A DNA stretch of 46,041 nt from a virus, in the UHGV virus genome UHGV-1457062; one strand, written 5' to 3'. The notes beneath the pieces are model-generated. The model was not told where the DNA came from, made no database searches, and saw nothing but the letters and a program-made list of their open reading frames with translations. The position numbers and the translations under genes were made by a program. How positions within the stretch are numbered: position 1 is the stretch's first letter; each line of letters starts with the position of its first letter. This document shows, one piece after another, positions 10,306 to 30,473 of the stretch.

Positions 10306-10962
10306 TTATTTCACTTCTCCGTCATACGTCGGAAGGGTGTCTTTAGTGGTGCTGGCTGTTCCTGCATTGGTTGGCACTTGGCTTTTTACCTGTCCGCCTG
10401 TGCTCTTAGGTGATGCGGTCTTTACAGCAATAGCGTTAGTAGTTGCATAACTCACTAATCTTATCTGTTCGAACTGCAAATCAAACTGTAAAGCTGATTC
10501 TGTTTTATATTCGTAGTCAATGCCTGTCAGAATCATATTATCAAACGTCTTATGCTCTGTGCTTACAATAATAGGCTGTCTGGCATTCATTATTTCATCA
10601 AGATAAGCAATAGCCTGTGAACACCTGTTACCGTTCACCCCTGCACTTGATAGCATATCACCACGTAATGCTAATGGTGTTTCTGTAATAATGCCTGAAA
10701 GCATAAGTTTATTATTCTTGATCCTGACATTATCAGATACATCATTACCATCCTGCACAGGATACGATGTAACATCGGCAGAACGTGAAACCTTAGTTGC
10801 CGGAACAGCGTCAAAAGTAATAGCTTTATAACTGGCTATCGTTGATGCATTCTCGTTATTCAGGTTGCTACATATAATGGCAAATCCGTTATCAGATTTA
10901 ACCTTGCTGTTAGATGTATTAATGTTAGATGTGCTGTTGATCTGACTTTCTTTGATAGCCAT
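10306..10962 (-). CDS. hypothetical protein (218 aa), Ser/Thr/Asn-rich
   Basis: Long ORF last in a co-directional block; no recognised motif. Confidence 0.55.
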   Translation of the reverse strand: MAIKESQINSTSNINTSNSKVKSDNGFAIICSNLNNENASTIASYKAITFDAVPATKVSRSADVTSYPVQDGNDVSDNVRIKNNKLMLSGIITETPLALRGDMLSSAGVNGNRCSQAIAYLDEIMNARQPIIVSTEHKTFDNMILTGIDYEYKTESALQFDLQFEQIRLVSYATTNAIAVKTASPKSTGGQVKSQVPTNAGTASTTKDTLPTYDGEVK

Positions 10963-11035
10963 TTATATTAATCCTTGTGTAATGAGCGGAAAGCAATAAA
11001 TATTGCCCCCGCTTTATTATTAGTTATCGTTAAAC

Positions 11036-12937
11036 TTAGTTAACGCTACTCTGTCCTGACAACGTGCTAAGAATCAGATTCGAACTAAACTGATTGTTGT
11101 TCGCTCTGATCTCAGTGCGGATTAAATCCTGAAAGCCGGGACCGTTAGGGATGACGTTAACAGAGATCATATCACTCGGCACCGTAACCTGTGCATTCAC
11201 GTTAACAGGGGTTGCGTATTGACGTTGTAGGCTTACAGTCGGCTGATAGGCTTCTGCTTTACGTGCAACAAGGGTTGATCCGTAGCTGTTAGCATTGCCA
11301 TTAATTAAATCAGTCCACCACCCTGGAACGCCGGACTGTGTTTCCTCACCGCGCACAATACGCCCTACATCTTTCGTATCGAGTCCAGTTGCATAACGAA
11401 TACCTTCATTGATAATCGTTGATGGCGACCATTCCCCATCTGTAACAGCGTCCATAACCTTTTGTGTCTCAGGTCGGTTATCATTCTCACCACGGCTAAG
11501 ATGTTTATTAATCCAGCTTGTGATTTGATTCCCGTAAGAAGTCATAGAGGTCAGTAATATAGCGCCTTGTTTAGCCAAATCCCCGAACGATGCACCAACA
11601 CCATAAGCTGCATTCTGTAAGGCTTTGCTTTCTTCCGGTTTGAGTGCTGGCATGTTGGCTATGCCATCAAAGAAGCCCAAAATAGCCTGATTCGATAGTC
11701 CATCTGTCAGACGGTCAAAGGCTGTAGCTGTCTTGTTAGCTGCGCGATATTGCTCTTTCTGTGCTTCTGTCAGTAGCTGCCCGTTGTTTTCCATATCAAC
11801 CATCGTTTTACGGAACTCTTCCCCATCACGGGAAAACATCTTGAGATAATGGCTGGCATCGTCTGCTAATGGTTCGATCAGGGATATGATGGCTTCTTTA
11901 GTCATTCCTCGGCGTTCACCTTCTCTCACCACGTCTTGCAAGAGTTGCAGCGGTCGCCCCTGGTAGGAAGCTATCTTATCTTTGTTCCATGCAAAGGCAT
12001 TCTGAATATCATTTAATGATCCTTCCCCGCCTCGCCACTCTTTTTTCTTACTATCCCATTCAGCAGTTCGGCTTTGATGACCAATGCGTTCGTTTAAGTC
12101 TTTGATATTATCAGTGGTCTTGTCCGCGCTTGCACTTGATACACCGTTTGCCCTCCCCCAATTAACCATTGCAGCCACCTGATTGCTATCGGCACCTACC
12201 AGATCGCTCATCTTCTGCAATTCCATACGTTCACGGGCTTTTTCCATTCCAGCGGATACAGCCATACTTCCTAAGCCAACGGCAGCGCCGCCGATAATGC
12301 CACCAACACCGCCCATCATTAACGCGCCACCGCCGCTAACACCTTCTTTGTGGAGCTTCTTAGAAGTAACTGGATATACCCCCCCAGCGGCAGCATTACG
12401 ACGCGTAGCAGCGGCTGCGGCTCGTCTTTCTAATGTGATGCGGTCACGGATCAGGGCATTCATCTTCGCTTGCGATATAGCGCCGGATTCATAGAGGCGG
12501 GTTTGTTCCTTAATGTAACGTAGAGCATCGTGATATTTCTTAATATCCATCCCTTCGCCATAGCGGGAATTGTTCTTGATGCCTTGTAACTGGCGATATG
12601 ATGCAAGGCGCTTGATCTCTGCCTTTTCAGCAATTGAGGCTCGTTTAGCCTGTGCTTTAGCGAGGTTTTTAGCTTCCTGTAGCTTCTGTTTAGTGCTGGC
12701 TTTAGATGCCTGTGTCTCAGATTTAACAGCCTGCTTAACATGCTGATCATGCTGGCGCTGAATCTCTTTTCCCAGCCTCTGTAAATCTTTCTGACGTGCT
12801 GCCGCCACTTGCACAGGTTTGATCCCCTGCATCTTCTTTTGTAGCTTATCCACTTCATTCTTAGCTTTCTGTAAGCTCTTGAAATCAGTGGTAAATGTCA
12901 CAACATTACTAATTCGTGAGGCGCTAATTTCTAACAT
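11036..12937 (-). CDS. hypothetical 633-aa protein: basic coiled-coil N-terminus, Gly-zipper hydrophobic segment, large C-terminal domain (tape-measure/pilot-like architecture)
   Basis: Heptad-like K/Q/A-rich N-terminus, GGALMMGGVGGIIGGAAVGLGSMAVSAG segment, no P-loop or catalytic motif recognised. Confidence 0.7.
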   Translation of the reverse strand: MLEISASRISNVVTFTTDFKSLQKAKNEVDKLQKKMQGIKPVQVAAARQKDLQRLGKEIQRQHDQHVKQAVKSETQASKASTKQKLQEAKNLAKAQAKRASIAEKAEIKRLASYRQLQGIKNNSRYGEGMDIKKYHDALRYIKEQTRLYESGAISQAKMNALIRDRITLERRAAAAATRRNAAAGGVYPVTSKKLHKEGVSGGGALMMGGVGGIIGGAAVGLGSMAVSAGMEKARERMELQKMSDLVGADSNQVAAMVNWGRANGVSSASADKTTDNIKDLNERIGHQSRTAEWDSKKKEWRGGEGSLNDIQNAFAWNKDKIASYQGRPLQLLQDVVREGERRGMTKEAIISLIEPLADDASHYLKMFSRDGEEFRKTMVDMENNGQLLTEAQKEQYRAANKTATAFDRLTDGLSNQAILGFFDGIANMPALKPEESKALQNAAYGVGASFGDLAKQGAILLTSMTSYGNQITSWINKHLSRGENDNRPETQKVMDAVTDGEWSPSTIINEGIRYATGLDTKDVGRIVRGEETQSGVPGWWTDLINGNANSYGSTLVARKAEAYQPTVSLQRQYATPVNVNAQVTVPSDMISVNVIPNGPGFQDLIRTEIRANNNQFSSNLILSTLSGQSSVN

Positions 12938-19010: not shown

Positions 19011-19568
19011 ATGAAAATGGCTAATATTGGATACATTAGGGTATCGACTGTCCAACAAAACACAGACCGTCAATTAGCTGGAGTAACTCTTGATAAAGTC
19101 TTTGAAGATAAAGCGTCAGGCAAGAATACCCAGCGCCCACAGTTTGAGGCAATGATGAACTATGTGCGTGAAGGTGATGTTTTGCATGTTCACAGCATTG
19201 ATCGACTTTGCCGTAATACAGCCGACCTACTGGCAACGGTTGAGCAATTAACAGAGCGCGGCGTGTCTGTGCATTTCCATAAAGAAGACTTTAAGACAGG
19301 GAAGAACTCTCCCGCAGGGAATATGATGCTCACAGTGCTTGCAGCAGTGGCACAAATGGAACGTGAAATGATGCTTGAGCGGCAGCGTGAGGGGATCGCC
19401 GCAGCTAAGGCCGCTGGACGTATAGCAAAACGTGGTAATGGAAAAGCAATTGATCGAGCGGGAATTGTTGCCGCTCTCGCGAATGGTGGATCAATTCGGA
19501 GCGTAGCAAAAGATTTCAGTGTCAGCACACAGACGGTGCAACGTATCAAGAAAGAGCAGGAAGCGTAA
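19011..19568 (+). CDS. serine recombinase (resolvase/invertase family)
   Basis: N-terminal IGYIRVSTVQQNTDRQ catalytic motif, C-terminal HTH; about 185 aa; alternative start at 19017. Confidence 0.85.
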   Translation: MKMANIGYIRVSTVQQNTDRQLAGVTLDKVFEDKASGKNTQRPQFEAMMNYVREGDVLHVHSIDRLCRNTADLLATVEQLTERGVSVHFHKEDFKTGKNSPAGNMMLTVLAAVAQMEREMMLERQREGIAAAKAAGRIAKRGNGKAIDRAGIVAALANGGSIRSVAKDFSVSTQTVQRIKKEQEA

Positions 19569-23453: not shown

Positions 23454-23585
23454 TTAATTTGCTCCAGATACAAGGAATCGCCGCAGCATGGCTACGGTGA
23501 GTATTTGTTACATACCGAAACGGTACGATTGTTGATTTGTACAGTAGGTTTTACGATGCCATTCCACCCATTTGGTGAGGCATTG

Positions 23586-23843
23586 ATGATGTACAGCAAA
23601 TACGATGAGGCGCAGTTCCACTTGAGGCTTACGCACGAGTTGCACGCTAAGATTAAGCAGCGTGCAAAAATGAATAACAGGTCTATCAATTCCGAAATTG
23701 TGGCTACGATGGAAGAATCACTCTCCAAACCATCACCTGTAAGCGGGTATCGTGATGAAGAAGAGAGGCTGGCCTCATTAATCTCGGAACGAGTAAAAGA
23801 AGTTGCGGCTGATATCCTTAGAAAAGAAAAAACCCGCGATTAA
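23586..23843 (+). CDS. mnt: Mnt-like ribbon-helix-helix repressor (immI)
   Basis: NNRSINSEIVATMEESLSKPSPVSGYRDEEERLA matches P22 Mnt; GGTGAGG RBS before ATG at 23586. Confidence 0.75.
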   Translation: MMYSKYDEAQFHLRLTHELHAKIKQRAKMNNRSINSEIVATMEESLSKPSPVSGYRDEEERLASLISERVKEVAADILRKEKTRD

Positions 23844-23857
23844 GCGGGTTTAGTTGG

Positions 23858-24079
23858 TTAGTTATCAAAAAGTCCGTACGTTTCTTCTTCTTCAGGTGTA
23901 AGGGGAAGAATCTCTACTCTATCTATAGATACCTTTTCAATGTACCCATGAGGTCTACTTAAAATTAAAGCTCTCTCATGCCACAGAACTCCAAGAATGT
24001 GATACCTTCCAGCATCGCCTTTTACCCTGGCTCGTCCTTTGATTCTTGGCGGCATAATGCCATATTTTTTCTTTGCCAT
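23858..24079 (-). CDS. hypothetical protein (73 aa)
   Basis: ORF immediately downstream of the antirepressor genes. Confidence 0.4.
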   Translation of the reverse strand: MAKKKYGIMPPRIKGRARVKGDAGRYHILGVLWHERALILSRPHGYIEKVSIDRVEILPLTPEEEETYGLFDN

Positions 24080-24804
24080 TATGCAACATTACTCCCATGA
24101 ATCAGGTGTTGTAGTGCTTTAACACCTTCCGCATTGTAGCGGAATGCTTCCACCTGTTTGCTGGAATGCGCAGATTTATCCAGGAAGAACTTACCGTACT
24201 GCTCAGTTTTGAGGTTGTTTGCGTTAGCAATGCGACCAATCTTGTTGGCCGTTACTCCAAGCTGCTCTGCAACCTCCCCTGCTGAGTAGTAATGCTCTTC
24301 TATTGCTGGAAGAGGTATTGCATTAAAACCAACGATCGGGTTGATTATGCTTGCTGCCGCAGTCTGCTTTGCTTCCGGCGCAAGATTTGGCATCAAATCG
24401 AACAGATTGGTAACAGCTTCAACCGTCATTTTCAGTGTTCGCGCTTGACGATACTCAACAAGTCCACTCGCTGATTTACCGCTTTTAATGTGTGCTTCCT
24501 GCATACTTTCAAGTTTGTCTACAAGTGTTCGGCGAACTGCTTTAGATTCTCGAGCAGCAACACGAAGCGCCTGCTTGATAGTCATGGAGATAACATCAAT
24601 GTCAGCCCCGTTTTTCCGACCTACACTTTTTGTGTAGGTCTCGCCCTCCAATTCATCCTCAATTTTCTCGATGAATTTGTTGTTACGTACTGATGGCTCT
24701 CCACATAACTTGCGAGCTTCATTAACCATCATCAGAAGACTTTGGCTGTCAATGGTTTTATCCGTGACAACGGATCCGATGTTTGCTACATTCTTCAAAG
24801 TCAT
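24079..24804 (-). CDS. antirepressor-like protein (Rha/ORF6N-like N-terminus, KilA-C-like C-terminus)
   Basis: ORF 24079-24855 with internal ATG at 24804 and AGGAA RBS; ...SLLMMVNEARKLCGEPSVRNNKFIEKIE... pattern. Confidence 0.55.
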   Translation of the reverse strand: MTLKNVANIGSVVTDKTIDSQSLLMMVNEARKLCGEPSVRNNKFIEKIEDELEGETYTKSVGRKNGADIDVISMTIKQALRVAARESKAVRRTLVDKLESMQEAHIKSGKSASGLVEYRQARTLKMTVEAVTNLFDLMPNLAPEAKQTAAASIINPIVGFNAIPLPAIEEHYYSAGEVAEQLGVTANKIGRIANANNLKTEQYGKFFLDKSAHSSKQVEAFRYNAEGVKALQHLIHGSNVA

Positions 24805-24892
24805 TAGGCATTCCTTATGTGGTAGTAAGGGTGTGACATAGGCCGCCAGCAGCACACTGGCGGTTTTCTTTTTGCGTCGTCCGGCGCACCAA

Positions 24893-25519
24893 TCAATGAA
24901 TCCATTCCTCGCCGCGCAGTTTTGCCAGCATTGGCTGAGCGTTCTTTACGACAAAATTGTTGGTATCAAGATTCTTCATTTCACGAAGAAGTGATTTCTT
25001 GGTTTCTTCTGACATGTAGCGAGTCTCATATGCAATATCGTAAATCCTTCCTGAAAGCTCAGAACCAATTTGCTTCATTCCTGGGTAGATGTGTTTGCAC
25101 ATTTGTTGGCTCTTCTCCATCCACAATTGTAAGTAGCAGAGATTAACCAGTTCTTCGTCAGTAAACTGTTTTGCAATCGGTGAGCATTCTGCCTGCCGAT
25201 CCAAAATATCCAGCACCCAGCGGCGGAACTCTTTTGCTACAGGAGTGCGAGCAAACATCGCGATTAGGTGGGCACCGCGTAGTGAGAAAACTCGCACTTT
25301 TTTGCGATAATTTCCTGAGGTACTCACTTCGAGTACCTGAGTCATTCCGGCGCTAAACTCATCGCTATACTTGTTATAAATCATTGTTACTGCACGACTA
25401 TTTGCGTATTTAAGTGCAGATGCAATATTAGATGATGTGAACCAAACACCATGCATATCACGGGTGGGGACCAACTCAACTCCGTGGAAGTTGTAATCTG
25501 ATTTTGCTACAATATTCAT
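24893..25519 (-). CDS. ant: antirepressor Ant-like (Bro-N domain)
   Basis: FHGVELVPTRDMHGVWFTSSNIASAL... Bro-N signature; ATG at 25519 with AAGGAA RBS; downstream of arc as in P22. Confidence 0.7.
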   Translation of the reverse strand: MNIVAKSDYNFHGVELVPTRDMHGVWFTSSNIASALKYANSRAVTMIYNKYSDEFSAGMTQVLEVSTSGNYRKKVRVFSLRGAHLIAMFARTPVAKEFRRWVLDILDRQAECSPIAKQFTDEELVNLCYLQLWMEKSQQMCKHIYPGMKQIGSELSGRIYDIAYETRYMSEETKKSLLREMKNLDTNNFVVKNAQPMLAKLRGEEWIH

Positions 25520-25592
25520 GTTAGTTTCCTTGCATACGGTTACTGACATAGAGGCCCGGTTTGTGTTCGCGCACTGCCGGGCTTCACTATTT

Positions 25593-25766
25593 TTATTGGA
25601 TGACAACATCGCCCTTTGCCTCAAGTTTCATCAATAACTCCATTCGATAAGCTATCTCTGCCTGAATTGACCTATGGCATCTTTTTGCTGATTCGCGGAT
25701 ATGTGAATCAACCTTTTCTGTAAAACGAACCTGACGCGGCTTGATGGAAGATATCTTTTCAGTCAT
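25593..25766 (-). CDS. arc: Arc-like ribbon-helix-helix repressor (57 aa)
   Basis: Manually translated MTEKISSIKPRQVRFTEKVDSHIRESAKRCHRSIQAEIAYRME...; position upstream of ant matches P22 arc; below ORF-track cut-off. Confidence 0.5.
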   Translation of the reverse strand: MTEKISSIKPRQVRFTEKVDSHIRESAKRCHRSIQAEIAYRMELLMKLEAKGDVVIQ

Positions 25767-25865
25767 TATGCACTCCTGTTTTTAAAAAACTCATAATCTC
25801 ACTTTTTGTAGTTTGATTATTCACTCACACTCAGTATGAGTCAATGAATTTTTTATGGTGAACTA

Positions 25866-26507
25866 ATGAATTTTGACGATCAATTCCCATCAAGAGTATC
25901 TCTGGCAAGACAGTCCAGGGGTATGACGCAGGCGCAGTTGTCAAAATTAGCTGGTGTTGTTCAACGTCAAATAGCTGCATACGAGGGTGGTGAAGCTAAA
26001 CCACGGCTTCGGGTATTGCAGGCATTAGCCAACGCATTAGGTACTACGGCTGAGTGGTTAGCTCTAGGTGAAGGTCAGGGTCCGGGAACAAAAAACGTCA
26101 TGCCTGACGTTCTGGTAAAGCAAATACCAATCCTCAAACTAGATGAAGTTATGCATTACCTAAACACAGGTGAACACTCATCGTCTAGATTTCATCCGGC
26201 AATATACAATGTTGGTGACTCTGCATTTGCATTGACTATTGAAGGTGAAGCTATGACTACAAGTTCAGGTATTAGCTTTCCCAGAGGATCGGTTGTCACG
26301 TTCAGCCCTCTAGTAAAAGCTAAAAGCAAAGATTATGTAATAGCATCATTGGATAAAGAGCAAATATTGAGCTTCAAACAGGTTTACATTGGTGAAATAG
26401 AGACAAACCTAGTATCCCTAAACCCAATGTATCCTAATATTCTTGTTAGAAATGAAGATGTTAGTATTTTGGCAACCGCAGTTTACCTTGAAATCCCGTT
26501 GCTTTGA
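25866..26507 (+). CDS. lambda CI-like repressor (XRE HTH + S24 LexA-like domain) with Ser->Ala at the nucleophile position and no Ala-Gly cleavage site
   Basis: C-terminal VGDSAFALTIEGEAMTT...SFKQV...LNPMYPNILV parallels lambda CI ASDSAFWLEVEGNSMTA...FTFKKL...LNPQYPMIP; GEAM in place of GNSM. Confidence 0.8.
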   Translation: MNFDDQFPSRVSLARQSRGMTQAQLSKLAGVVQRQIAAYEGGEAKPRLRVLQALANALGTTAEWLALGEGQGPGTKNVMPDVLVKQIPILKLDEVMHYLNTGEHSSSRFHPAIYNVGDSAFALTIEGEAMTTSSGISFPRGSVVTFSPLVKAKSKDYVIASLDKEQILSFKQVYIGEIETNLVSLNPMYPNILVRNEDVSILATAVYLEIPLL

Positions 26508-26571
26508 TATCCTTTGGGAAGCGACACATTATCATCTGATATCCTGCGCAAAACTAAGGAGTGGCTACTCA

Positions 26572-27210
26572 ATGAAAAAAATAGATATATATAGCGATAC
26601 ATCAACCTATGTCATAGGATCATTAGGTTTTTTAATTTTTTTTGTTTGGCAGTACCAGTCACTATCTCCAGGGTGGAGATTTTTGGGGATGTCTTTGATA
26701 TCACTTGGTGCAGGAATAGCAACGCAGGTGTTGATGTATCTCTTTAATGGATGGCTCTCAAAAAGAGTTGAGAAAAAAAGAGCTGCTTCAATATGTAGAA
26801 GCCTAGCCATTCCAGAAGACTCTACAGATCAGGATGATATTGCAAAATGTTGGCGGTATATGATTGCAAGATACTCAAATGAGTTACTGGCAAACAGACT
26901 GTCCGACTTAATCGGGATCGTAGTTACCTCTGTTGGAACAATCATCAGTATAGGGATATCAATTTGGTATGTCGGGATGATTGTCTATTTTGTTTGGAAT
27001 AGAGACTTCAATGAACCTTTCCTTCTTTTTATACCTTTATTTTTCAGGATATTAGCATTCATATGTGAGTTATTGCTCTCTTTTTTCTGCAATGTTTTGT
27101 TCAACAGATACCCTGGTGAAGCAAGAAAGTTTAATAAAAACTATGATGAGTTAAGGAGAATAGATCCTTTTCTATCAAGTAAAGAGTTCCGCGATTCCAT
27201 TCGCAATTAA
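26572..27210 (+). CDS. AT-rich multi-pass membrane protein at the sieA locus (candidate superinfection-exclusion moron)
   Basis: ORF 26443-27210; ATG at 26572 with AAGGAG RBS; at least four hydrophobic helices; low GC. Confidence 0.6.
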   Translation: MKKIDIYSDTSTYVIGSLGFLIFFVWQYQSLSPGWRFLGMSLISLGAGIATQVLMYLFNGWLSKRVEKKRAASICRSLAIPEDSTDQDDIAKCWRYMIARYSNELLANRLSDLIGIVVTSVGTIISIGISIWYVGMIVYFVWNRDFNEPFLLFIPLFFRILAFICELLLSFFCNVLFNRYPGEARKFNKNYDELRRIDPFLSSKEFRDSIRN

Positions 27211-27231: not shown

Positions 27232-29061
27232 TTAGCGATCAGTTGCATCATTGGCAAGTATTGGTCTGATGGCATTTGCGGCGTTATTCAGCGCTCTTTC
27301 ATAGGCTGGCGTTCCAGCTTTAGTGTTTGCCAGACGTAAGAGCGCATTCCTAGCCATAGGGCTTTCATAAACCCTCGACATAAGGCCAATCCCTGTTTCC
27401 CCAGCCAATAGCGCGCCTCCGGTTTTTAGGTTACCAATAACCCTTACCAAAGGCGCGAGTGTCATGCCAGTCTTCGTCACAACATTAGCCTCAGATGCTC
27501 TTTTGGTAGCATCGAGAATAGATAACATCCCCTCTATCTCTTTTCCGTTCTTCCCACCAAATACAGTTTTAAACACCTGACCATTTGCTTGTTTTTGCAG
27601 CTTGCCAAGCTCGGTCATCATTTTCTGAGGGCTGTCACCTACCTTGTCAGCTATTTTGCTGATATATGCCGCCCTTAGCATGTCTTTACCTTTTTGATCG
27701 AGTTTCCCGTACAATCGAGCTATATCTGACCCATATTGTCCATACACAATGGTATTTACAGCCTCGGGAGTTAAATCTCCTTTGTTTAGAACGTTTTTAA
27801 GGCGCGTTTGAGTTGCATGTGTTGCCATTTTTGCATAATCAGCTTTTCCCGCTCTCCATGCTGAAGCATCTTTTGGGCTAAGTCCTTTCGCTATAGATTT
27901 ACTAAGGCTATTGGTTAGCGAGTTGTAGACCCTGTCGACCATTGTTTGCGACATTGATGGCAGAACTGTACGATCGCCTTTTACGTCAATGCGGAACTGA
28001 GTTCTCAGCTTATCAAGTAACTCAAAGGCATCATCTCCATTTGTTATCTCCTGAATGGCATTCTTATAATCATTAAGCGCAGAAATGGTCTGGGTGTCAG
28101 AAACACCTTTAAGTTTCCCAAGTTCGTTTACTGCTCCGTCGATAGCTCTTATGGCGCCACTTGTATCAACTGGCTTTCCAACCATTCTTCCTGACAGGTT
28201 GTTTAGTTTTGACTTGGCTAACGATTTTTCCCTTGCAACGCCTGACTTTAGACTATCAACGACTACAGATGGATCGTAGTCGCCGTATTTTTCGGTGAAG
28301 CGATTAACAAGCTTGGTTCTAGCATCCTGCTGTGCGGCTCTCATTGGTCCAGTCCCAGCTATGACTCCTTCTGAGTAACCCTGCAGTTGATTGCCAAGTT
28401 TTGTTTTTGGAGGAACTACATCCGATGTCATAACTGGTACATCTGCCGCAGCGGCACGCTTGAGCAATTGCTGATCTGCTGGTGATATTTCGCCACGAAC
28501 AGCAGTAATTCCACGCCCTATTCCCTTTGCTGCTGCGGAAAGAACCCCCTGAGCGGCAAGGTTAACTCCGGCATTTTTAGTTGCATTTTGTGCGAAATCG
28601 CCTTTCTGATTTGCGGCCTCTGCCAGTGATCCAATAGCCATGCTTCCTGCCGTTCCAACTCCTGGAACTAAATACCCGCCAATTGTTTCACCAGCTTGCG
28701 CGTAAGGGTCTGTCGGTCGATCGACAGGGCGATAAACATCATCCAAAACCTTGGGGCCACCAAGCCCCTGGCTGATTGCATTAATCAGACTTGCGCCACC
28801 CTGCAATACGTCAAATGGTATGTTTACCAGACCACGACCAGCCTGTTCTGCAATTTGCCCTGCACTTTGACCACCAGTGAGCCAATCGCCAGCTTGTTGC
28901 ATCAATGATGGTTCTTCACGTGCTGGTTCATTGCTATCCTGGCTGACAGTTTGTTGCTGAACAGACTGTCCAGCAAAATACTCATCAATGGCAGATCCAA
29001 TATCTTCCGTGCTCGTACCATCAGGGAAGGTAAATGTCTTACCGTTTGCAGTTACTTTCAT
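27232..29061 (-). CDS. DNA injection (ejection) protein, P22 gp16 homologue
   Basis: 610 aa versus 609 aa in P22; conserved position after gene 20. Confidence 0.75.
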   Translation of the reverse strand: MKVTANGKTFTFPDGTSTEDIGSAIDEYFAGQSVQQQTVSQDSNEPAREEPSLMQQAGDWLTGGQSAGQIAEQAGRGLVNIPFDVLQGGASLINAISQGLGGPKVLDDVYRPVDRPTDPYAQAGETIGGYLVPGVGTAGSMAIGSLAEAANQKGDFAQNATKNAGVNLAAQGVLSAAAKGIGRGITAVRGEISPADQQLLKRAAAADVPVMTSDVVPPKTKLGNQLQGYSEGVIAGTGPMRAAQQDARTKLVNRFTEKYGDYDPSVVVDSLKSGVAREKSLAKSKLNNLSGRMVGKPVDTSGAIRAIDGAVNELGKLKGVSDTQTISALNDYKNAIQEITNGDDAFELLDKLRTQFRIDVKGDRTVLPSMSQTMVDRVYNSLTNSLSKSIAKGLSPKDASAWRAGKADYAKMATHATQTRLKNVLNKGDLTPEAVNTIVYGQYGSDIARLYGKLDQKGKDMLRAAYISKIADKVGDSPQKMMTELGKLQKQANGQVFKTVFGGKNGKEIEGMLSILDATKRASEANVVTKTGMTLAPLVRVIGNLKTGGALLAGETGIGLMSRVYESPMARNALLRLANTKAGTPAYERALNNAANAIRPILANDATDR

Positions 29062-30473
29062 CATTCCACCGTAAATTGAATGCCTGATTTTGAGGTATAT
29101 GATCCAACCTGATTCGGTGTTTCTCCTGAAGGTGTCGAATCTTGCGCTGGTGCTGCGTCAGTATTCATTGACATATACCGCTTAACGGCACTCCCCAATG
29201 ATTCACCTTTTTTAACATCCAACCCCAATATCTGACCGCCATTACGCGATTGTCCAGGGTTGCCATTCGCGCTCATCCACTCGGCTTTAAATTCATTAAA
29301 CTGCGCGTTTCGTCGCTCAAGGTTTGCCATTGCATCAAGCCATCTTGCGACCGTCTCAGGGTTATCCATGTCAGTTGGCGCACCCTGTCGAACGATCTCA
29401 ACGTCTTTATCCGTTGCTGGGCCGGGAGGTAGGAATTTAAGAACCTGACTGTTAACAAGGGCATTTTGGCGGATGCGCAAATCACGCAATGTCGTATCGC
29501 TTCCGGTAAGTTTTGCGAACATGTTCTGTGCGTTACCGAACAAACCTGTCGTTGGTTTTTCTGCTCTGAACTGTTGAGCAAGCGCACTCATAGAATTGGC
29601 TGAGTTTGATGATGCTGTGGCATTGTTTACAGCCGTCTCGATGCCTTTTTCCATGTTTACTGACAGCTTAGGTGCTTCACTAATCAACTGCTGAGCCTTT
29701 TCCTGCGCTTGCTGCATCTTAAACCCGAACTCTTGCTGATCCAGAGCCAAGCGTTGTGCTGCGATATTGTGCCCAGTCATTGCTGACTGATAGGAAAGGT
29801 TTTGCCCTCTCGCCTGAAGTGCTTCACCAGCCTGATTGCTGCGGATTGTCTCTGCCAGCCTGCCTCGGTCAATTTCACGACCAGCCATCTTGTCCTGAAC
29901 ATTGAAGTAATCAATCGGACCAAGAGCAACCATCCCAAGGTGATCAACAAACTCACCAAATCCTGAAGGATTCTGCTGATACATCTGAGCAACGTTATTA
30001 GGGTCAACACCGACGCGAGTCAGTTCCTTGGCGTTGTTTTGCAGCCATGATTGCATTGCTTCTGGAGACGAGGCCGCAAGGCGTGCGCCAGCCGCTAAGG
30101 TTCCTATAGAATTGCGCTGGTCTTCGTCTGCCCACTTCATACCAGACTGAATCTTCTCTAATTGACCAGGATATTTTGTCATCAGATCTCGAACCTGCTG
30201 TCGATCACCTGATTGAATAGCAGAAGCATAATCCTTTCTGAATGCTGCCTCTTGCTTCTGCTGATCATATTGCTGCAATCCTTGCATTGTGCTTGTTATT
30301 CCCTGCAGAGCCTGCAGACCGATATTGTTGCGACCAAGCCTGGCATCCTCATTATTCTGACGAATGTAAGCCAGTGTCTCATTTACATCACTCGCCTTTG
30401 GCGCATTCTCATTTTGCGCACCAATTCCAGCCAGAAAACCACCGGAGTTGATGCTCTGTTGCCAAGTTGCCAC
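29061..30473 (-). CDS. DNA injection protein, P22 gp20 homologue
   Basis: 470 aa (P22 gp20 471 aa); synteny. Confidence 0.75.
   Translation of the reverse strand: MATWQQSINSGGFLAGIGAQNENAPKASDVNETLAYIRQNNEDARLGRNNIGLQALQGITSTMQGLQQYDQQKQEAAFRKDYASAIQSGDRQQVRDLMTKYPGQLEKIQSGMKWADEDQRNSIGTLAAGARLAASSPEAMQSWLQNNAKELTRVGVDPNNVAQMYQQNPSGFGEFVDHLGMVALGPIDYFNVQDKMAGREIDRGRLAETIRSNQAGEALQARGQNLSYQSAMTGHNIAAQRLALDQQEFGFKMQQAQEKAQQLISEAPKLSVNMEKGIETAVNNATASSNSANSMSALAQQFRAEKPTTGLFGNAQNMFAKLTGSDTTLRDLRIRQNALVNSQVLKFLPPGPATDKDVEIVRQGAPTDMDNPETVARWLDAMANLERRNAQFNEFKAEWMSANGNPGQSRNGGQILGLDVKKGESLGSAVKRYMSMNTDAAPAQDSTPSGETPNQVGSYTSKSGIQFTVE

What the first reader, a model, noticed from the sequence alone, without database searches (positions are those of the whole stretch)
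25866..27210. Moron pair at the P22 sieA locus: CI-like repressor without catalytic serine plus AT-rich membrane protein
Between injection gene 16 and immI, on the strand opposite to all flanking phage genes, sit a lambda CI-family protein and a low-GC multi-TM protein. The CI-like C-terminal domain aligns with lambda CI, but the nucleophilic Ser is Ala (GEAM for GNSM) and there is no Ala-Gly site; the Lys is kept. RecA-mediated autocleavage should therefore be impossible. The layout recalls lambda cI-rexAB; it may be a constitutively repressed exclusion or abortive-infection module.
Basis: partly seen in the sequence, partly recalled or inferred. Interest (0 to 1): 0.75.

Follow-up and report, generated by a model that had tools for sequence, protein, structure and literature searches.

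The report
SieA exclusion gene beside non-cleavable antirepressor regulator
The membrane gene is a known, already tested phage-exclusion gene (type B SieA), and the serine-less CI-like gene next to it most likely keeps a neighbouring antirepressor operon switched off, a variant of phage P22's second immunity region rather than a new defence system.

Summary
Both ORFs are real, and the sequence observations hold. The CI-like protein (25866-26507) has Ala129 in place of the S24 nucleophile, keeps Lys171, and has no Ala-Gly in its linker.

The membrane protein (26572-27210) is not novel. It is 97% identical to the type B SieA of E. coli prophage HS1. Leavitt et al. 2024 cloned that gene without the CI-like gene and showed it excludes P22-like phages by blocking DNA injection.

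The two genes are not a conserved unit. In 5,426 complete E. coli genomes the CI-like gene occurs in 28 and this sieA in 21. They are adjacent at near-identity in 4 records.

The constant partner of the CI-like gene, seen in 13 distinct loci (16 fetched) from podo- and siphovirus prophages, is a divergent operon. That operon has a near-consensus promoter, a 57-aa gene, a homologue of P22 sar antisense RNA and one or two antirepressor genes. In E. coli NC22 a Mnt/Arc pair fills the same slot.

Best reading: the CI-like protein is a RecA-insensitive, Mnt-like maintenance repressor of an immI-type antirepressor cassette, with sieA as separate cargo. The sieA part is already known. The regulator is a modest new variant of a known kind.

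The parts
25866..26507 (+). CI-like regulator, 213 aa: an N-terminal 5-helix HTH and a proteolytically dead S24 (LexA/lambda CI) C-terminal domain.
   Evidence: Pfam HTH_3 + Peptidase_S24. phrog_4 transcriptional repressor, E=7.5e-30. AF2 pLDDT 86 and Foldseek top hit lambda repressor. 100% identical in phage JEP4, where it is annotated 'repressor protein C2'.
26250..26252 (+). Codon GCT = Ala129, at the position of the S24 nucleophilic serine.
   Evidence: Alignments to lambda CI, P22 C2 and the HS1 C2-like repressor. The 81%-identical homologue in L011 has TCT (Ser) here, a single-base difference.
26376..26378 (+). Codon for Lys171, the retained general-base lysine (SFKQ).
26572..27210 (+). 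sieA, type B: an inner-membrane superinfection exclusion protein of 212 aa.
   Evidence: 206/212 identical to HS1 SieA. phrog_7745 'SieA-like', E=1.4e-20. tblastn to P22 sieA: 27% identity, E=7e-7. Carries the motif FNRYPGEARKFNK. Function shown for the HS1 orthologue in PMC10883804.
26504..26532 (+). Candidate sieA promoter (TTGATA-17-CATTAT), inside the 3' end of the CI-like gene. SD AAGGAG lies at 26556-26561.
   Evidence: Consensus scan and sequence. It lies within the 106 bp that sufficed for HS1 sieA function. Only the part from the -10 onward is shared with NC22, so the -35 is uncertain.
25767..25865 (.). Divergent control region of 99 bp (GC 0.29) between the CI-like gene and the 57-aa/antirepressor operon.
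25816..25844 (-). Pant-like sigma-70 promoter, TTGACT-17-AATAAT (10/12), driving the 57-aa/Ant operon.
   Evidence: Conserved as TTGAC[TA] with a 17-18 bp spacer and a (A/C)AT(A)nT -10 hexamer in 7 of the 8 loci scanned; no TTGAC[TA] was found in the L012 region examined. Aligns with P22 Pant.
25829..25841 (.). 13-bp dyad ACTCA-GTA-TGAGT that overlaps the -35 of the Pant-like promoter. It is a candidate operator (inference).
   Evidence: ACTCA/TGAGT half-sites recur at the -35 and at about +20 of the leader in the related loci.
25593..25766 (-). 57-aa first gene of the antirepressor operon (phrog_10182), at the position of P22 arc.
   Evidence: Conserved partner in all loci examined. Its fold is unresolved: the RHH signals are weak and the AF2 monomer is one long helix.
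25505..25597 (+). Homologue of P22 sar cis-antisense RNA. Extended -10 (TG 25505-6, TACAAT 25508-13), an RNA of about 25521-25597 complementary to the Ant RBS and start, then a GC-rich terminator hairpin and a U-run that ends at the 57-aa stop codon.
   Evidence: MFE -29.4 kcal/mol, z=-4.8. The element is visible in the 12 loci extracted, and the hairpin statistics come from 11 of them. Hairpin: 93% of cells paired, 7 of 12 pairs with compensatory changes, 0 of 500 shuffles reach it. Aligns with the annotated P22 sar region and has the same geometry.
24893..25519 (-). Antirepressor (Bro-N + P22_AR_C). The start may instead be ATG 25609.
   Evidence: Pfam. phrog_245 Ant, E=6e-66. BLASTP to the P22 Ant C-terminal part, E=2e-9.
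24079..24807 (-). Second antirepressor-like gene (phrog_1726; called 'KilA protein' in JEP4).
23858..24079 (-). 73-aa gene of unknown function (phrog_4977), the last gene of the operon.
23586..23843 (+). True Mnt homologue (RHH, 85 aa). It is divergent from the tailspike gene, not from the ant operon.
   Evidence: Alignment with P22 Mnt and Arc, PHROG Arc-like hits, JEP4 annotation 'mnt'. No P22-type Omnt in the window.
27232..29064 (-). gp16 ejection protein. It is the boundary of the region and, with gp20, the likely target of SieA.
   Evidence: phrog_770, E=3e-245. PMC10883804.
21465..23453 (-). Tailspike gene (gene 9 homologue), the other boundary of the 'ant moron'.

Best explanation
Two independent things lie side by side in the variable 'ant moron' between genes 16 and 9 of a P22-like prophage.

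(1) sieA. ORF 26572-27210 is a type B SieA. It is an inner-membrane protein made in the lysogen that stops superinfecting P22-like phages at DNA injection, probably by interfering with the gp16/gp20 ejection-protein conduit. It is expressed from signals immediately upstream and needs no partner.

(2) The CI-like gene. ORF 25866-26507 is the maintenance regulator of a variant secondary-immunity (immI-type) cassette. The inferred mechanism has four steps:
- A lambda-CI-fold dimer binds the 99-bp divergent region.
- There it represses a near-consensus promoter that drives a 57-aa protein (at the Arc position), two antirepressors and a 73-aa protein.
- A sar-homologous antisense RNA additionally blocks Ant translation.
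- The protein therefore plays the role that the RHH protein Mnt plays in P22.

Without the Ser nucleophile and the Ala-Gly site, the S24 domain would serve only as an oligomerisation scaffold. Antirepressor synthesis would then stay off during SOS and would be released only when the cassette enters a cell that lacks the regulator.

What is shown: the identities, homologies, synteny, promoter and RNA conservation, and SieA function (in the HS1 orthologue). What is inferred: DNA binding, repression rather than activation, the operator sequence, the targets of the antirepressors, and the lack of cleavage.
For: SieA:
- 97% identity to HS1 SieA. The family motif and the type B N-terminal extension are present. 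PHROG and P22 hits agree.
- HS1 sieA cloned with 106 bp upstream fully excluded P22, L, MG40, MG178 and LP7 (PMC10883804).

CI-like protein:
- HTH + S24 fold, with Ala129, Lys171 and no linker Ala-Gly.
- The near-identical HS1 prophage has a separate cleavable C2-type repressor at immC. This window ends in the nin region.

Linkage to the antirepressor operon:
- Every context examined had an HTH-S24 homologue (40-81% identity) divergent from a 57-aa (once 67-aa) gene plus a P22_AR_N or Bro-N/P22_AR_C antirepressor. The contexts were E. coli, Salmonella, Yersinia, Leclercia, Klebsiella, Hafnia, Providencia and unnamed assemblies, in P22-like and lambda/HK97-like late operons.
- The gene downstream of the CI-like gene varies: SieA type B, SieA type A, phrog_2651, nothing, or unrelated genes on the other strand.

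Control signals:
- The Pant-like promoter is conserved and near consensus and aligns with P22 Pant. That favours negative control.
- The sar homologue is conserved with covariation.

Slot swap: in E. coli NC22 the same slot, between sieA-B and a P22AR_C antirepressor, holds a Mnt-like gene divergent from a classical Arc-type gene.

Literature: Villafane et al. 2008 noted that HS-1 has ant genes but no arc, and must control them differently (PMC2629481).
Against: - No experiment addresses the CI-like protein.
- The operator is only guessed, and no promoter for the CI-like gene itself scored in the scan.
- A genuine Mnt homologue is also present 2 kb away (23586-23843), so Mnt-type control of something in this region is not excluded.
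- The 57-aa protein could not be shown to be an RHH protein: Pfam ParD_like is below threshold, hhalign gives 17% probability, and the AF2 monomer is one long helix.
- Most family members keep Ser and Lys (17 of 23 and 19 of 23 sequences). The C-terminal domain may therefore retain some activity in relatives, and its loss here might mean decay rather than design.
- sieA lies co-oriented 64 bp downstream with no predicted terminator between, so some co-transcription cannot be excluded. In E. coli H22 sieA-B again follows a CI-like gene of the long form.
Confidence: 0.65

Rival explanations
1. The CI-like gene and the membrane gene form one functional operon like lambda cI-rexAB: a repressor-controlled exclusion or abortive-infection module in which the non-cleavable repressor governs the membrane effector.
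For: The two genes are co-oriented and 64 bp apart, with no predicted terminator between them. In E. coli H22 a sieA-B gene also follows a (long-form) CI-like gene. A co-oriented cargo slot downstream of the CI-like gene recurs in E. coli.
Against: HS1 sieA works alone with 106 bp of upstream DNA. SieA blocks DNA entry and is not abortive infection. The two genes are adjacent at near-identity in 4 records, against 28 genomes with the CI-like gene and 21 with this sieA. sieA-B also follows a Mnt-like gene, and P22 sieA follows mnt/orf59a. Homologues of the CI-like gene in siphoviruses have no co-oriented membrane gene but always have the antirepressor operon. No ACTCA/TGAGT-type dyad lies in front of sieA.
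Confidence: 0.1
2. The CI-like protein is an activator or sensor, as in the TF-smORF induction modules of Silpe et al. 2023. On an unknown non-SOS cue it would switch on the divergent 57-aa gene and the antirepressors, which inactivate the primary repressor and induce the prophage. The dead S24 domain would serve as a signal-receiving domain.
For: The architecture matches: an XRE-type TF divergent from a small ORF that sits upstream of antirepression functions, at varying sites in late or accessory regions of unrelated phages. The 57-aa protein has no confirmed DNA-binding fold. Lambda CI-type proteins can activate as well as repress (established knowledge).
Against: The target promoter is near consensus (TTGACT-17-AATAAT) and conserved, which is typical of a promoter that needs repression, not activation. 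The cassette keeps the P22 sar antisense brake and Pant homology. A Mnt/Arc pair is an alternative occupant of the same slot. Classical Ant proteins, not only a smORF, are encoded downstream.
Confidence: 0.12
3. The CI-like gene is a decaying remnant, or a heteroimmunity 'extra repressor' aimed at other phages' operators, with no role in controlling the neighbouring operon.
For: The catalytic Ser and the cleavage site are lost. The C-terminal half has low GC (0.375). In E. coli E272 the gene survives in a deleted prophage.
Against: The ORF is intact and 98-99.5% conserved at the DNA level in 28 E. coli genomes, and its protein is identical in the isolated phage JEP4. The HTH recognition region (VVQRQIAAYEGGEAKPR) is almost invariant across homologues of only 40-49% identity. 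These always keep the same divergent promoter and partner genes, which indicates a selected, local function.
Confidence: 0.08

Closest known systems
Type B SieA of E. coli prophage HS1 (EcHS_A0321); P22 SieA family (Leavitt et al. 2024, PMC10883804)
   Same: 97% identical over all 212 residues. It occupies the same position, between gene 16 and the ant region of a P22-like prophage, and has the same motif FxRYPxEAxxFNK. It has the ~40-residue N-terminal extension, relative to type A, that the paper says carries an extra membrane segment.
   Different: Six amino-acid substitutions. Function was not tested for this allele.
P22 immI secondary immunity region (mnt / arc / sar / ant)
   Same: Same genome position. 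A divergent maintenance regulator faces a strong Pant promoter. A small first gene is followed by sar antisense RNA across the ant RBS, here homologous in sequence and geometry. The Ant protein shares the P22_AR_C domain.
   Different: The regulator facing Pant is a 213-aa HTH + dead-S24 protein instead of the 83-aa RHH protein Mnt. The first gene is a 57-aa protein of a different family from Arc. There are two antirepressor-type genes plus a 73-aa gene. A Mnt homologue is present, but it is displaced next to the tailspike gene.
Lambda CI / P22 C2 / LexA self-cleaving S24 repressors
   Same: Two-domain architecture and fold. The C-terminal domain superposes on the lambda CI C-terminal domain at 1.8 A. 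The Lys of the dyad is retained.
   Different: Ser is replaced by Ala, and there is no Ala-Gly in the linker, where the model predicts a helix (residues 92-101). It is not the primary immunity repressor and is not located at immC.
Antirepressor genes under dedicated repressor control (Gifsy GfoA/GfhA under LexA; Fels-1 FsoA under the Fels-1 repressor; Lemire et al. 2011, PMC3121763)
   Same: An antirepressor transcription unit lies outside immC and is held off in the lysogen by a protein repressor.
   Different: In the Gifsy phages the controller is host LexA, which is SOS-cleavable. Here it is a cassette-encoded, apparently non-cleavable CI-type protein. The non-cleavable Gifsy repressors are short proteins that lack the C-terminal domain, not S24 pseudo-proteases.
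TF-smORF prophage induction modules (Silpe et al. 2023, PMC10432266)
   Same: An XRE-type transcription factor is divergent from a small ORF linked to inactivation of the primary repressor. The module is found at different places in different phages.
   Different: In those modules the TF activates and the smORF itself is the antirepressor. Here the promoter looks constitutive, classical Ant proteins and sar are present, and repression is the likelier mode.

Membership tests
SieA superinfection exclusion proteins (type B) | Sequence homology to SieA proteins | tested here: met
   206/212 identical to HS1 SieA. phrog_7745, E=1.4e-20. P22 sieA by tblastn: 27% identity, E=7e-7.
SieA superinfection exclusion proteins (type B) | Conserved motif FxRYPxEAxxFNK near the C-terminus | tested here: met
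   FNRYPGEARKFNK is present. The motif is defined in PMC10883804.
SieA superinfection exclusion proteins (type B) | Multi-pass inner-membrane protein, with an N-terminal extension relative to type A that carries an extra membrane segment | tested here: inconclusive
   The extension is present: 212 aa against 164 aa for type A, and the PHROG type A profile aligns only from residue 45. A Kyte-Doolittle scan (19-residue window, threshold 1.6) gives hydrophobic stretches around residues 37-58, 110-142 and 146-178. No stretch inside the first ~36 residues passed the threshold, so the extra N-terminal segment was not resolved. No dedicated topology predictor was run.
SieA superinfection exclusion proteins (type B) | Located between the gene 16 and gene 9 homologues of a P22-like prophage | tested here: met
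SieA superinfection exclusion proteins (type B) | Excludes P22-like phages by blocking DNA injection | not testable with these tools
   Shown experimentally only for the 97%-identical HS1 protein.
Self-cleaving S24 repressors (LexA / lambda CI / UmuD) | S24 beta-rich C-terminal fold joined to a DNA-binding domain | tested here: met
   Pfam PF00717, E=1.3e-12. AF2 + Foldseek: lambda CI, LexA and UmuD' all at probability 1.00.
Self-cleaving S24 repressors (LexA / lambda CI / UmuD) | Nucleophilic Ser in the G-x-S-M motif | tested here: not met
   The motif is GEAM, with Ala129.
Self-cleaving S24 repressors (LexA / lambda CI / UmuD) | General-base Lys | tested here: met
   Lys171 aligns with lambda Lys192.
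Self-cleaving S24 repressors (LexA / lambda CI / UmuD) | Ala-Gly (or Cys-Gly) scissile bond in the linker | tested here: not met
   The aligned stretch is LDEVMHY. The only AG dipeptide is in the HTH. Among the 22 homologue clusters, only P0016 has AG at this site.
Self-cleaving S24 repressors (LexA / lambda CI / UmuD) | RecA-stimulated autocleavage | not testable with these tools
   Predicted to be absent from the two failed features. Established knowledge: LexA S119A and lambda CI Ser149 mutants do not cleave.
P22-type immI secondary immunity region | Antirepressor gene homologous to P22 ant, between genes 16 and 9 | tested here: met
   P22_AR_C domain. BLASTP to P22 Ant, E=2e-9.
P22-type immI secondary immunity region | sar antisense RNA across the ant ribosome-binding site | tested here: met
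   Same geometry as the annotated P22 sar, and alignable sequence. Extended -10, terminator with covariation. Transcription itself was not observed.
P22-type immI secondary immunity region | Arc (RHH) as first gene of the ant operon | tested here: inconclusive
   A 57-aa gene sits at exactly the arc position. ParD_like E=8e-4 is below the cut-off. The CopG hit has E=0.25. hhalign to Arc/Mnt gives 17% probability, in the RHH register. The AF2 monomer is one helix.
P22-type immI secondary immunity region | Mnt (RHH) maintenance repressor divergent from Pant | tested here: not met
   The divergent gene is the HTH-S24 protein. The Mnt homologue lies at 23586-23843, next to the tailspike gene. There is no P22 Omnt.
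Lambda cI-rexAB-type repressor/exclusion operon | Exclusion genes obligatorily linked to, and co-transcribed with, the primary immunity repressor | tested here: not met
   Linkage is not conserved. The primary repressor is elsewhere in HS1. HS1 sieA is active on its own. Co-transcription itself is not testable here.
TF-smORF induction modules | The TF activates a divergent small ORF that inactivates the primary repressor | not testable with these tools
   The layout is compatible, but the near-consensus target promoter argues for repression.

The most novel reading that the evidence does not exclude
The CI-like / 57-aa / sar / Ant unit may be a self-contained, horizontally mobile 'anti-immunity switch' that inserts into the late operons of unrelated temperate phages.

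In this reading the pseudo-protease C-terminal domain is not just a dimerisation scaffold. It could be a sensor for a non-SOS cue. Alternatively it could be the target of the cassette's own antirepressors, which would give a bistable feedback loop. Either way the host phage would gain an SOS-independent route to induction, or to trans-induction of resident prophages.

The repeated loss of the Ala-Gly site is consistent with this reading, and so is the independent loss of Ser or Lys in several branches. Together they would mark an evolutionary shift from an SOS-cleavable controller to a signal-gated one.
Probability: 0.15. Interest if true: 0.6.

Novelty: new variant of a known kind. Interest (0 to 1): 0.3.

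Why it matters
For the membrane gene nothing new is gained. It is a known, tested exclusion protein, and the annotation 'hypothetical protein' can simply be replaced by 'SieA type B'.

The CI-like gene is of modest interest. It suggests an answer to a question left open in 2008: how HS-1-type prophages control their antirepressors without arc/mnt.

It also shows that the P22 immI logic (maintenance repressor, small first gene, sar RNA, Ant) exists as a portable cassette with an interchangeable regulator. That cassette is found in both podovirus and siphovirus late operons across the Enterobacterales examined.

Finally, the family is a natural series of S24 domains at different stages of losing self-cleavage features. 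That could be useful for studying how LexA-like proteases become pure scaffolds.

Antirepressor cassettes affect cross-induction of prophages in polylysogens, so knowing their controller matters when predicting prophage stability.

Tried and rejected
- **Defence-system membership.** PADLOC gave only generic HTH hits for the CI-like protein and nothing for the membrane protein. NCBIfam gave nothing above the cut-offs.
- **LexA control of the ant operon.** By eye the intergenic region has only CTGT-N8-AACT, which is not a LexA box.
- **P22 Mnt operator.** There was no match in the window with either spacing tried.
- **CI-like operator in front of sieA.** None was found. Only a direct repeat, TGATATCCT, is there.
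- **A firm operator from comparison of intergenic regions.** Only the promoter and loose ACTCA/TGAGT half-sites are shared. Spacing varies from 37 to 47 bp, so no operator is claimed.
- **RHH fold for the 57-aa protein.** The PDB profile search was not significant. hhalign gave 17% probability. AF2 gave a single helix and Foldseek found no match. The question is left open.
- **Mnt-like gene as part of the mobile cassette.** Rejected. The small + strand ORFs at the distal end in the siphovirus loci are unrelated to Mnt.
- **The CI-like gene as a primary repressor in another phage (hits H27-H30).** Rejected. E272 is the same prophage type with its late region deleted.
- **Rfam.** There was no significant family. 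The only hit was symR at E=0.74, which happened to mark the sar-like element.
- **Literature.** No paper mentions EcHS_A0322 or WP_001008290.
Full report
**1. The observation**

The two + strand ORFs exist exactly where described. They are flanked by - strand phage genes: the gp16 ejection protein (27232-29064) on one side and antirepressor genes on the other.

ORF1 (25866-26507, 213 aa) matches Pfam HTH_3 and Peptidase_S24 above their thresholds. HMMER alignments to lambda repressor chains pair lambda LEVEGNSMT with LTIEGEAMT, and FTFKKL with LSFKQV. The nucleophilic Ser149 of lambda is therefore Ala129 here (codon GCT, 26250-26252), and the general-base Lys is kept as Lys171.

In a multiple alignment with lambda CI, P22 C2 and the C2-type repressor of prophage HS1, the scissile Ala-Gly of those proteins faces LDEVM. 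The only Ala-Gly in the protein is inside the HTH. The residue-level lambda result rests.

An AlphaFold model (mean pLDDT 86) has a five-helix N-terminal domain, a low-confidence linker and a beta-rich C-terminal domain. Its best structural matches are lambda repressor (3bdn, E=2e-11; C-terminal domain 1f39 at 1.8 A), then LexA and UmuD'.

ORF2 is best read from ATG 26572, which is preceded by AAGGAG. It is 212 aa long, has several long hydrophobic stretches and has GC 0.358 against 0.475 for the prophage part of the window.

**2. The membrane gene is a known SieA**

ORF2 matches PHROG 7745 'superinfection exclusion SieA-like' (E=1.4e-20) and P22 sieA by tblastn (27% identity, E=7e-7).

The region is 98% identical in DNA to the P22-like prophage of E. 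coli HS, and the protein is 206/212 identical to HS locus EcHS_A0321. Leavitt et al. 2024 (PMC10883804) describe exactly this protein as the 'type B' SieA:
- It is 24% identical to P22 SieA.
- It has an N-terminal extension with an extra membrane segment.
- It carries the shared motif FxRYPxEAxxFNK. The window protein has FNRYPGEARKFNK.

They cloned HS1 sieA with 106 bp of upstream DNA into Salmonella and found full exclusion of P22, L, MG40, MG178 and LP7. [quoted passage not shown]

A promoter-like TTGATA-17-CATTAT lies inside those 106 bp (26504-26532). The membrane gene is therefore a plain SieA orthologue that works without the CI-like gene.

**3. The two genes are not a unit**

- Among 5,426 complete E. 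coli genomes the CI-like gene is found in 28 and this sieA in 21.
- Only 4 records hold both side by side at near-identity, and three of those are copies of strain HS.
- Behind an identical CI-like protein (WP_001008290.1), the co-oriented slot holds one of four things: type B SieA; a type A SieA (164 aa, phrog_7745 E=7e-109); an unrelated 122-aa protein; or nothing, as in the isolated phage JEP4.
- Conversely, sieA-B follows a diverged long-form CI-like gene in E. coli H22 and a Mnt-like gene in E. coli NC22. P22 sieA lies downstream of mnt.

sieA is therefore cargo in a variable slot next to whichever maintenance regulator is present.

**4. What the CI-like gene is always linked to**

Homologues of 40-81% identity were traced to their contigs. 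The search was also run in reverse, starting from the 57-aa gene. The contexts were Salmonella Kottbus, Yersinia enterocolitica, Leclercia, Klebsiella variicola, Hafnia alvei, Providencia phage PSTNGR2lys, E. coli H22 and unnamed assemblies.

In every case an HTH-S24 gene lies divergent from a 57-aa gene (67 aa once), followed by a P22_AR_N or Bro-N/P22_AR_C antirepressor. Often a second antirepressor of the ORF6N, pRha or KilA type follows.

The cassette sits between gp16 and the tailspike gene in P22-like prophages. In lambda- and HK97-like prophages it sits among tail genes, and in one case at a prophage end. It is therefore a portable module.

The minus-strand promoter in the 99-bp divergent region is near consensus (TTGACT-17-AATAAT). 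It is conserved in 7 of the 8 loci scanned and aligns with P22 Pant.

**5. A sar homologue**

Between the 57-aa stop codon and the Ant start codon, the + strand (antisense to the operon) carries:
- an extended -10 (TG-n-TACAAT, 25505-25513) inside the first Ant codons;
- the complement of the Ant start codon and RBS;
- a small hairpin;
- a GC-rich hairpin followed by a U-run that ends at the 57-aa stop codon.

The 78-nt stretch folds with z = -4.8. The element is visible in the 12 loci extracted. In an alignment of 11 of them, the terminator stem has 93% of cells paired and 7 of 12 pairs with compensatory changes. No shuffle out of 500 reaches that, and slid controls give 36-53% paired. The many G-U pairs on this strand would be A-C mismatches on the other strand, so the structure belongs to the antisense transcript.

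The annotated P22 record places sar in exactly this geometry: from the arc stop to the ant start, with Psar inside ant. The P22 sar region aligns with the window element. By my own comparison, the P22 hairpin sequence is identical to that of locus L011.

The cassette is thus a true relative of P22 immI. Pant, sar and the Ant C-terminal domain (BLASTP E=2e-9) are shared. The two protein regulators are different.

**6. Cassette swap**

In E. coli NC22 the slot between sieA-B and a P22AR_C antirepressor is filled by a Mnt-like RHH gene, annotated as truncated. It is divergent from a classical Arc-type 57-aa gene. In the window, HS, JEP4 and H22, the same slot holds the CI-like gene divergent from the phrog_10182 57-aa gene. 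Two regulator pairs are therefore alternative occupants of one position. This is the strongest argument from position that the CI-like protein does Mnt's job and the 57-aa protein does Arc's.

Villafane et al. 2008 (PMC2629481) had already remarked that HS-1 has antirepressor genes but no arc and 'must' control them differently. I found no later paper that addresses the gene.

**7. Mechanism proposed**

- Shown: the identities, synteny, conserved promoter and sar, the absence of the Ser and Ala-Gly features, and SieA function in the orthologue.
- Inferred: the CI-like dimer binds the divergent region and represses the strong Pant-like promoter. The 13-bp dyad ACTCAGTATGAGT over the -35, and the recurring ACTCA/TGAGT half-sites, are only candidates for the binding site.
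- Inferred: sar limits Ant translation.
- Inferred: being uncleavable, the regulator keeps the antirepressors off during SOS. The prophage's own induction would run through its C2-type repressor, which is cleavable in HS1 (GDSM, SAG, FKK).

This window ends in the nin region (Q, RusA, YbcO). Its own immC was therefore not seen, and that step is extrapolated from HS1.

**8. Family-level picture of the S24 domain**

- Of 23 sequences (the query plus 22 clusters), 17 keep Ser and 19 keep Lys. Only one (P0016) has Ala-Gly at the lambda-aligned position.
- Ser is replaced by Ala in the E. coli/Salmonella subclade. The 81%-identical L011 protein still has TCT, so this is a single T-to-G change.
- Ser and Lys are lost independently in cluster P0022 and in the Providencia phage homologue (DPAM, FRQ/FRR).
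- Many distant members carry an extra C-terminal tail of about 60 residues.

Loss of canonical self-cleavage therefore seems general in this family, and the Ser loss here is a late step.

**9. Rivals**

- The cI-rexAB-like operon idea is weakened by sections 2-4.
- An activator or sensor role, as in TF-smORF modules (PMC10432266), fits the layout. It is disfavoured by the near-consensus promoter, the retained sar brake and the Mnt/Arc swap.
- A decaying or heteroimmune 'extra repressor' is disfavoured by the near-invariant recognition region and the constant partners.

Remaining uncertainties:
- No operator has been identified.
- The 57-aa fold is unresolved.
- The role of the genuine Mnt homologue at 23586-23843 is unknown. 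It faces the tailspike gene and has no P22-type operator nearby.

**10. Verdict**

Its central idea, a coupled and possibly novel exclusion or abortive-infection module, is not supported.

The sieA part is already known. The regulator is an uncharacterised but unsurprising variant of P22 immI control. Interest is about 0.3.

Noticed in passing
window 25505-25597 (+): A conserved homologue of P22 sar antisense RNA lies between the 57-aa gene and Ant. It has an extended -10 promoter and a covarying terminator, is not annotated in any of the records inspected, and has no Rfam match.
   Followed up: yes
window 23586-23843 (+) and 23454-23585: A genuine Mnt homologue sits divergent from the tailspike gene rather than from the ant operon. 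No P22-type Omnt and no clear palindrome is present in its upstream region, so its target is unknown.
   Followed up: partly
window 26505-26513 and 26537-26545 (+): A direct repeat, TGATATCCT, brackets the candidate sieA promoter. A third copy is at 23810, inside the mnt-like gene. Its meaning is unknown.
   Followed up: no
window 25843-25874 (+): The sequence AATGAATTTT occurs twice, 22 bp apart. The first copy starts a 5-codon mini-ORF (MNFLW) just upstream of the CI-like start. In several homologues the upstream ATGAGTCAA, which overlaps the -35 of the opposite promoter, is in frame and is annotated as the start (N-terminal 'MSQ...' extensions).
   Followed up: partly
L021 (E. coli H22) 2552-3415; P0012-P0021: Long-form members of the CI-like family carry an extra C-terminal tail of about 60 residues that looks helical or coiled-coil-like (e.g. 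...ERLKRLDEIAERLEK...). The window protein lacks it.
   Followed up: no
L022 (E. coli NC22) 2902-3345: In an otherwise syntenic prophage, a Mnt-like gene (annotated as truncated) and a classical Arc-type 57-aa gene replace the CI-like gene and the phrog_10182 gene. This is a clean regulator-pair swap.
   Followed up: yes
L003 (E. coli E272) 9267-10772: A prophage remnant in which the CI-like gene abuts a replication gene. The whole late region, from sieA/gp16 to the nin genes, appears to be deleted.
   Followed up: partly
window 19011-19568 (+): A serine recombinase (Resolvase + HTH, Pfam E=1e-38) lies about 2 kb beyond the tailspike gene, near the prophage end. It could be an invertase or part of another element.
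   Followed up: no
window 8867-12937: A second set of mobile-element genes lies outside the P22-like prophage: a tyrosine integrase (8867-10231), a Dit-like tail protein (10306-10962) and a 633-aa ORF with no Pfam match.
   Followed up: no
window 41440-42051 (-): A further Rha/ORF11CD3 regulator gene lies between the lysis genes and the terminase genes, at the same place as in HS1. With the two in the ant region, it is a third antirepressor-type gene in this prophage.
   Followed up: no
NZ_CP146561.1 (hit H118): sieA-B at 98% identity lies on a 39,940-bp record classed as a plasmid. It may be a circular P22-like phage genome.
   Followed up: no
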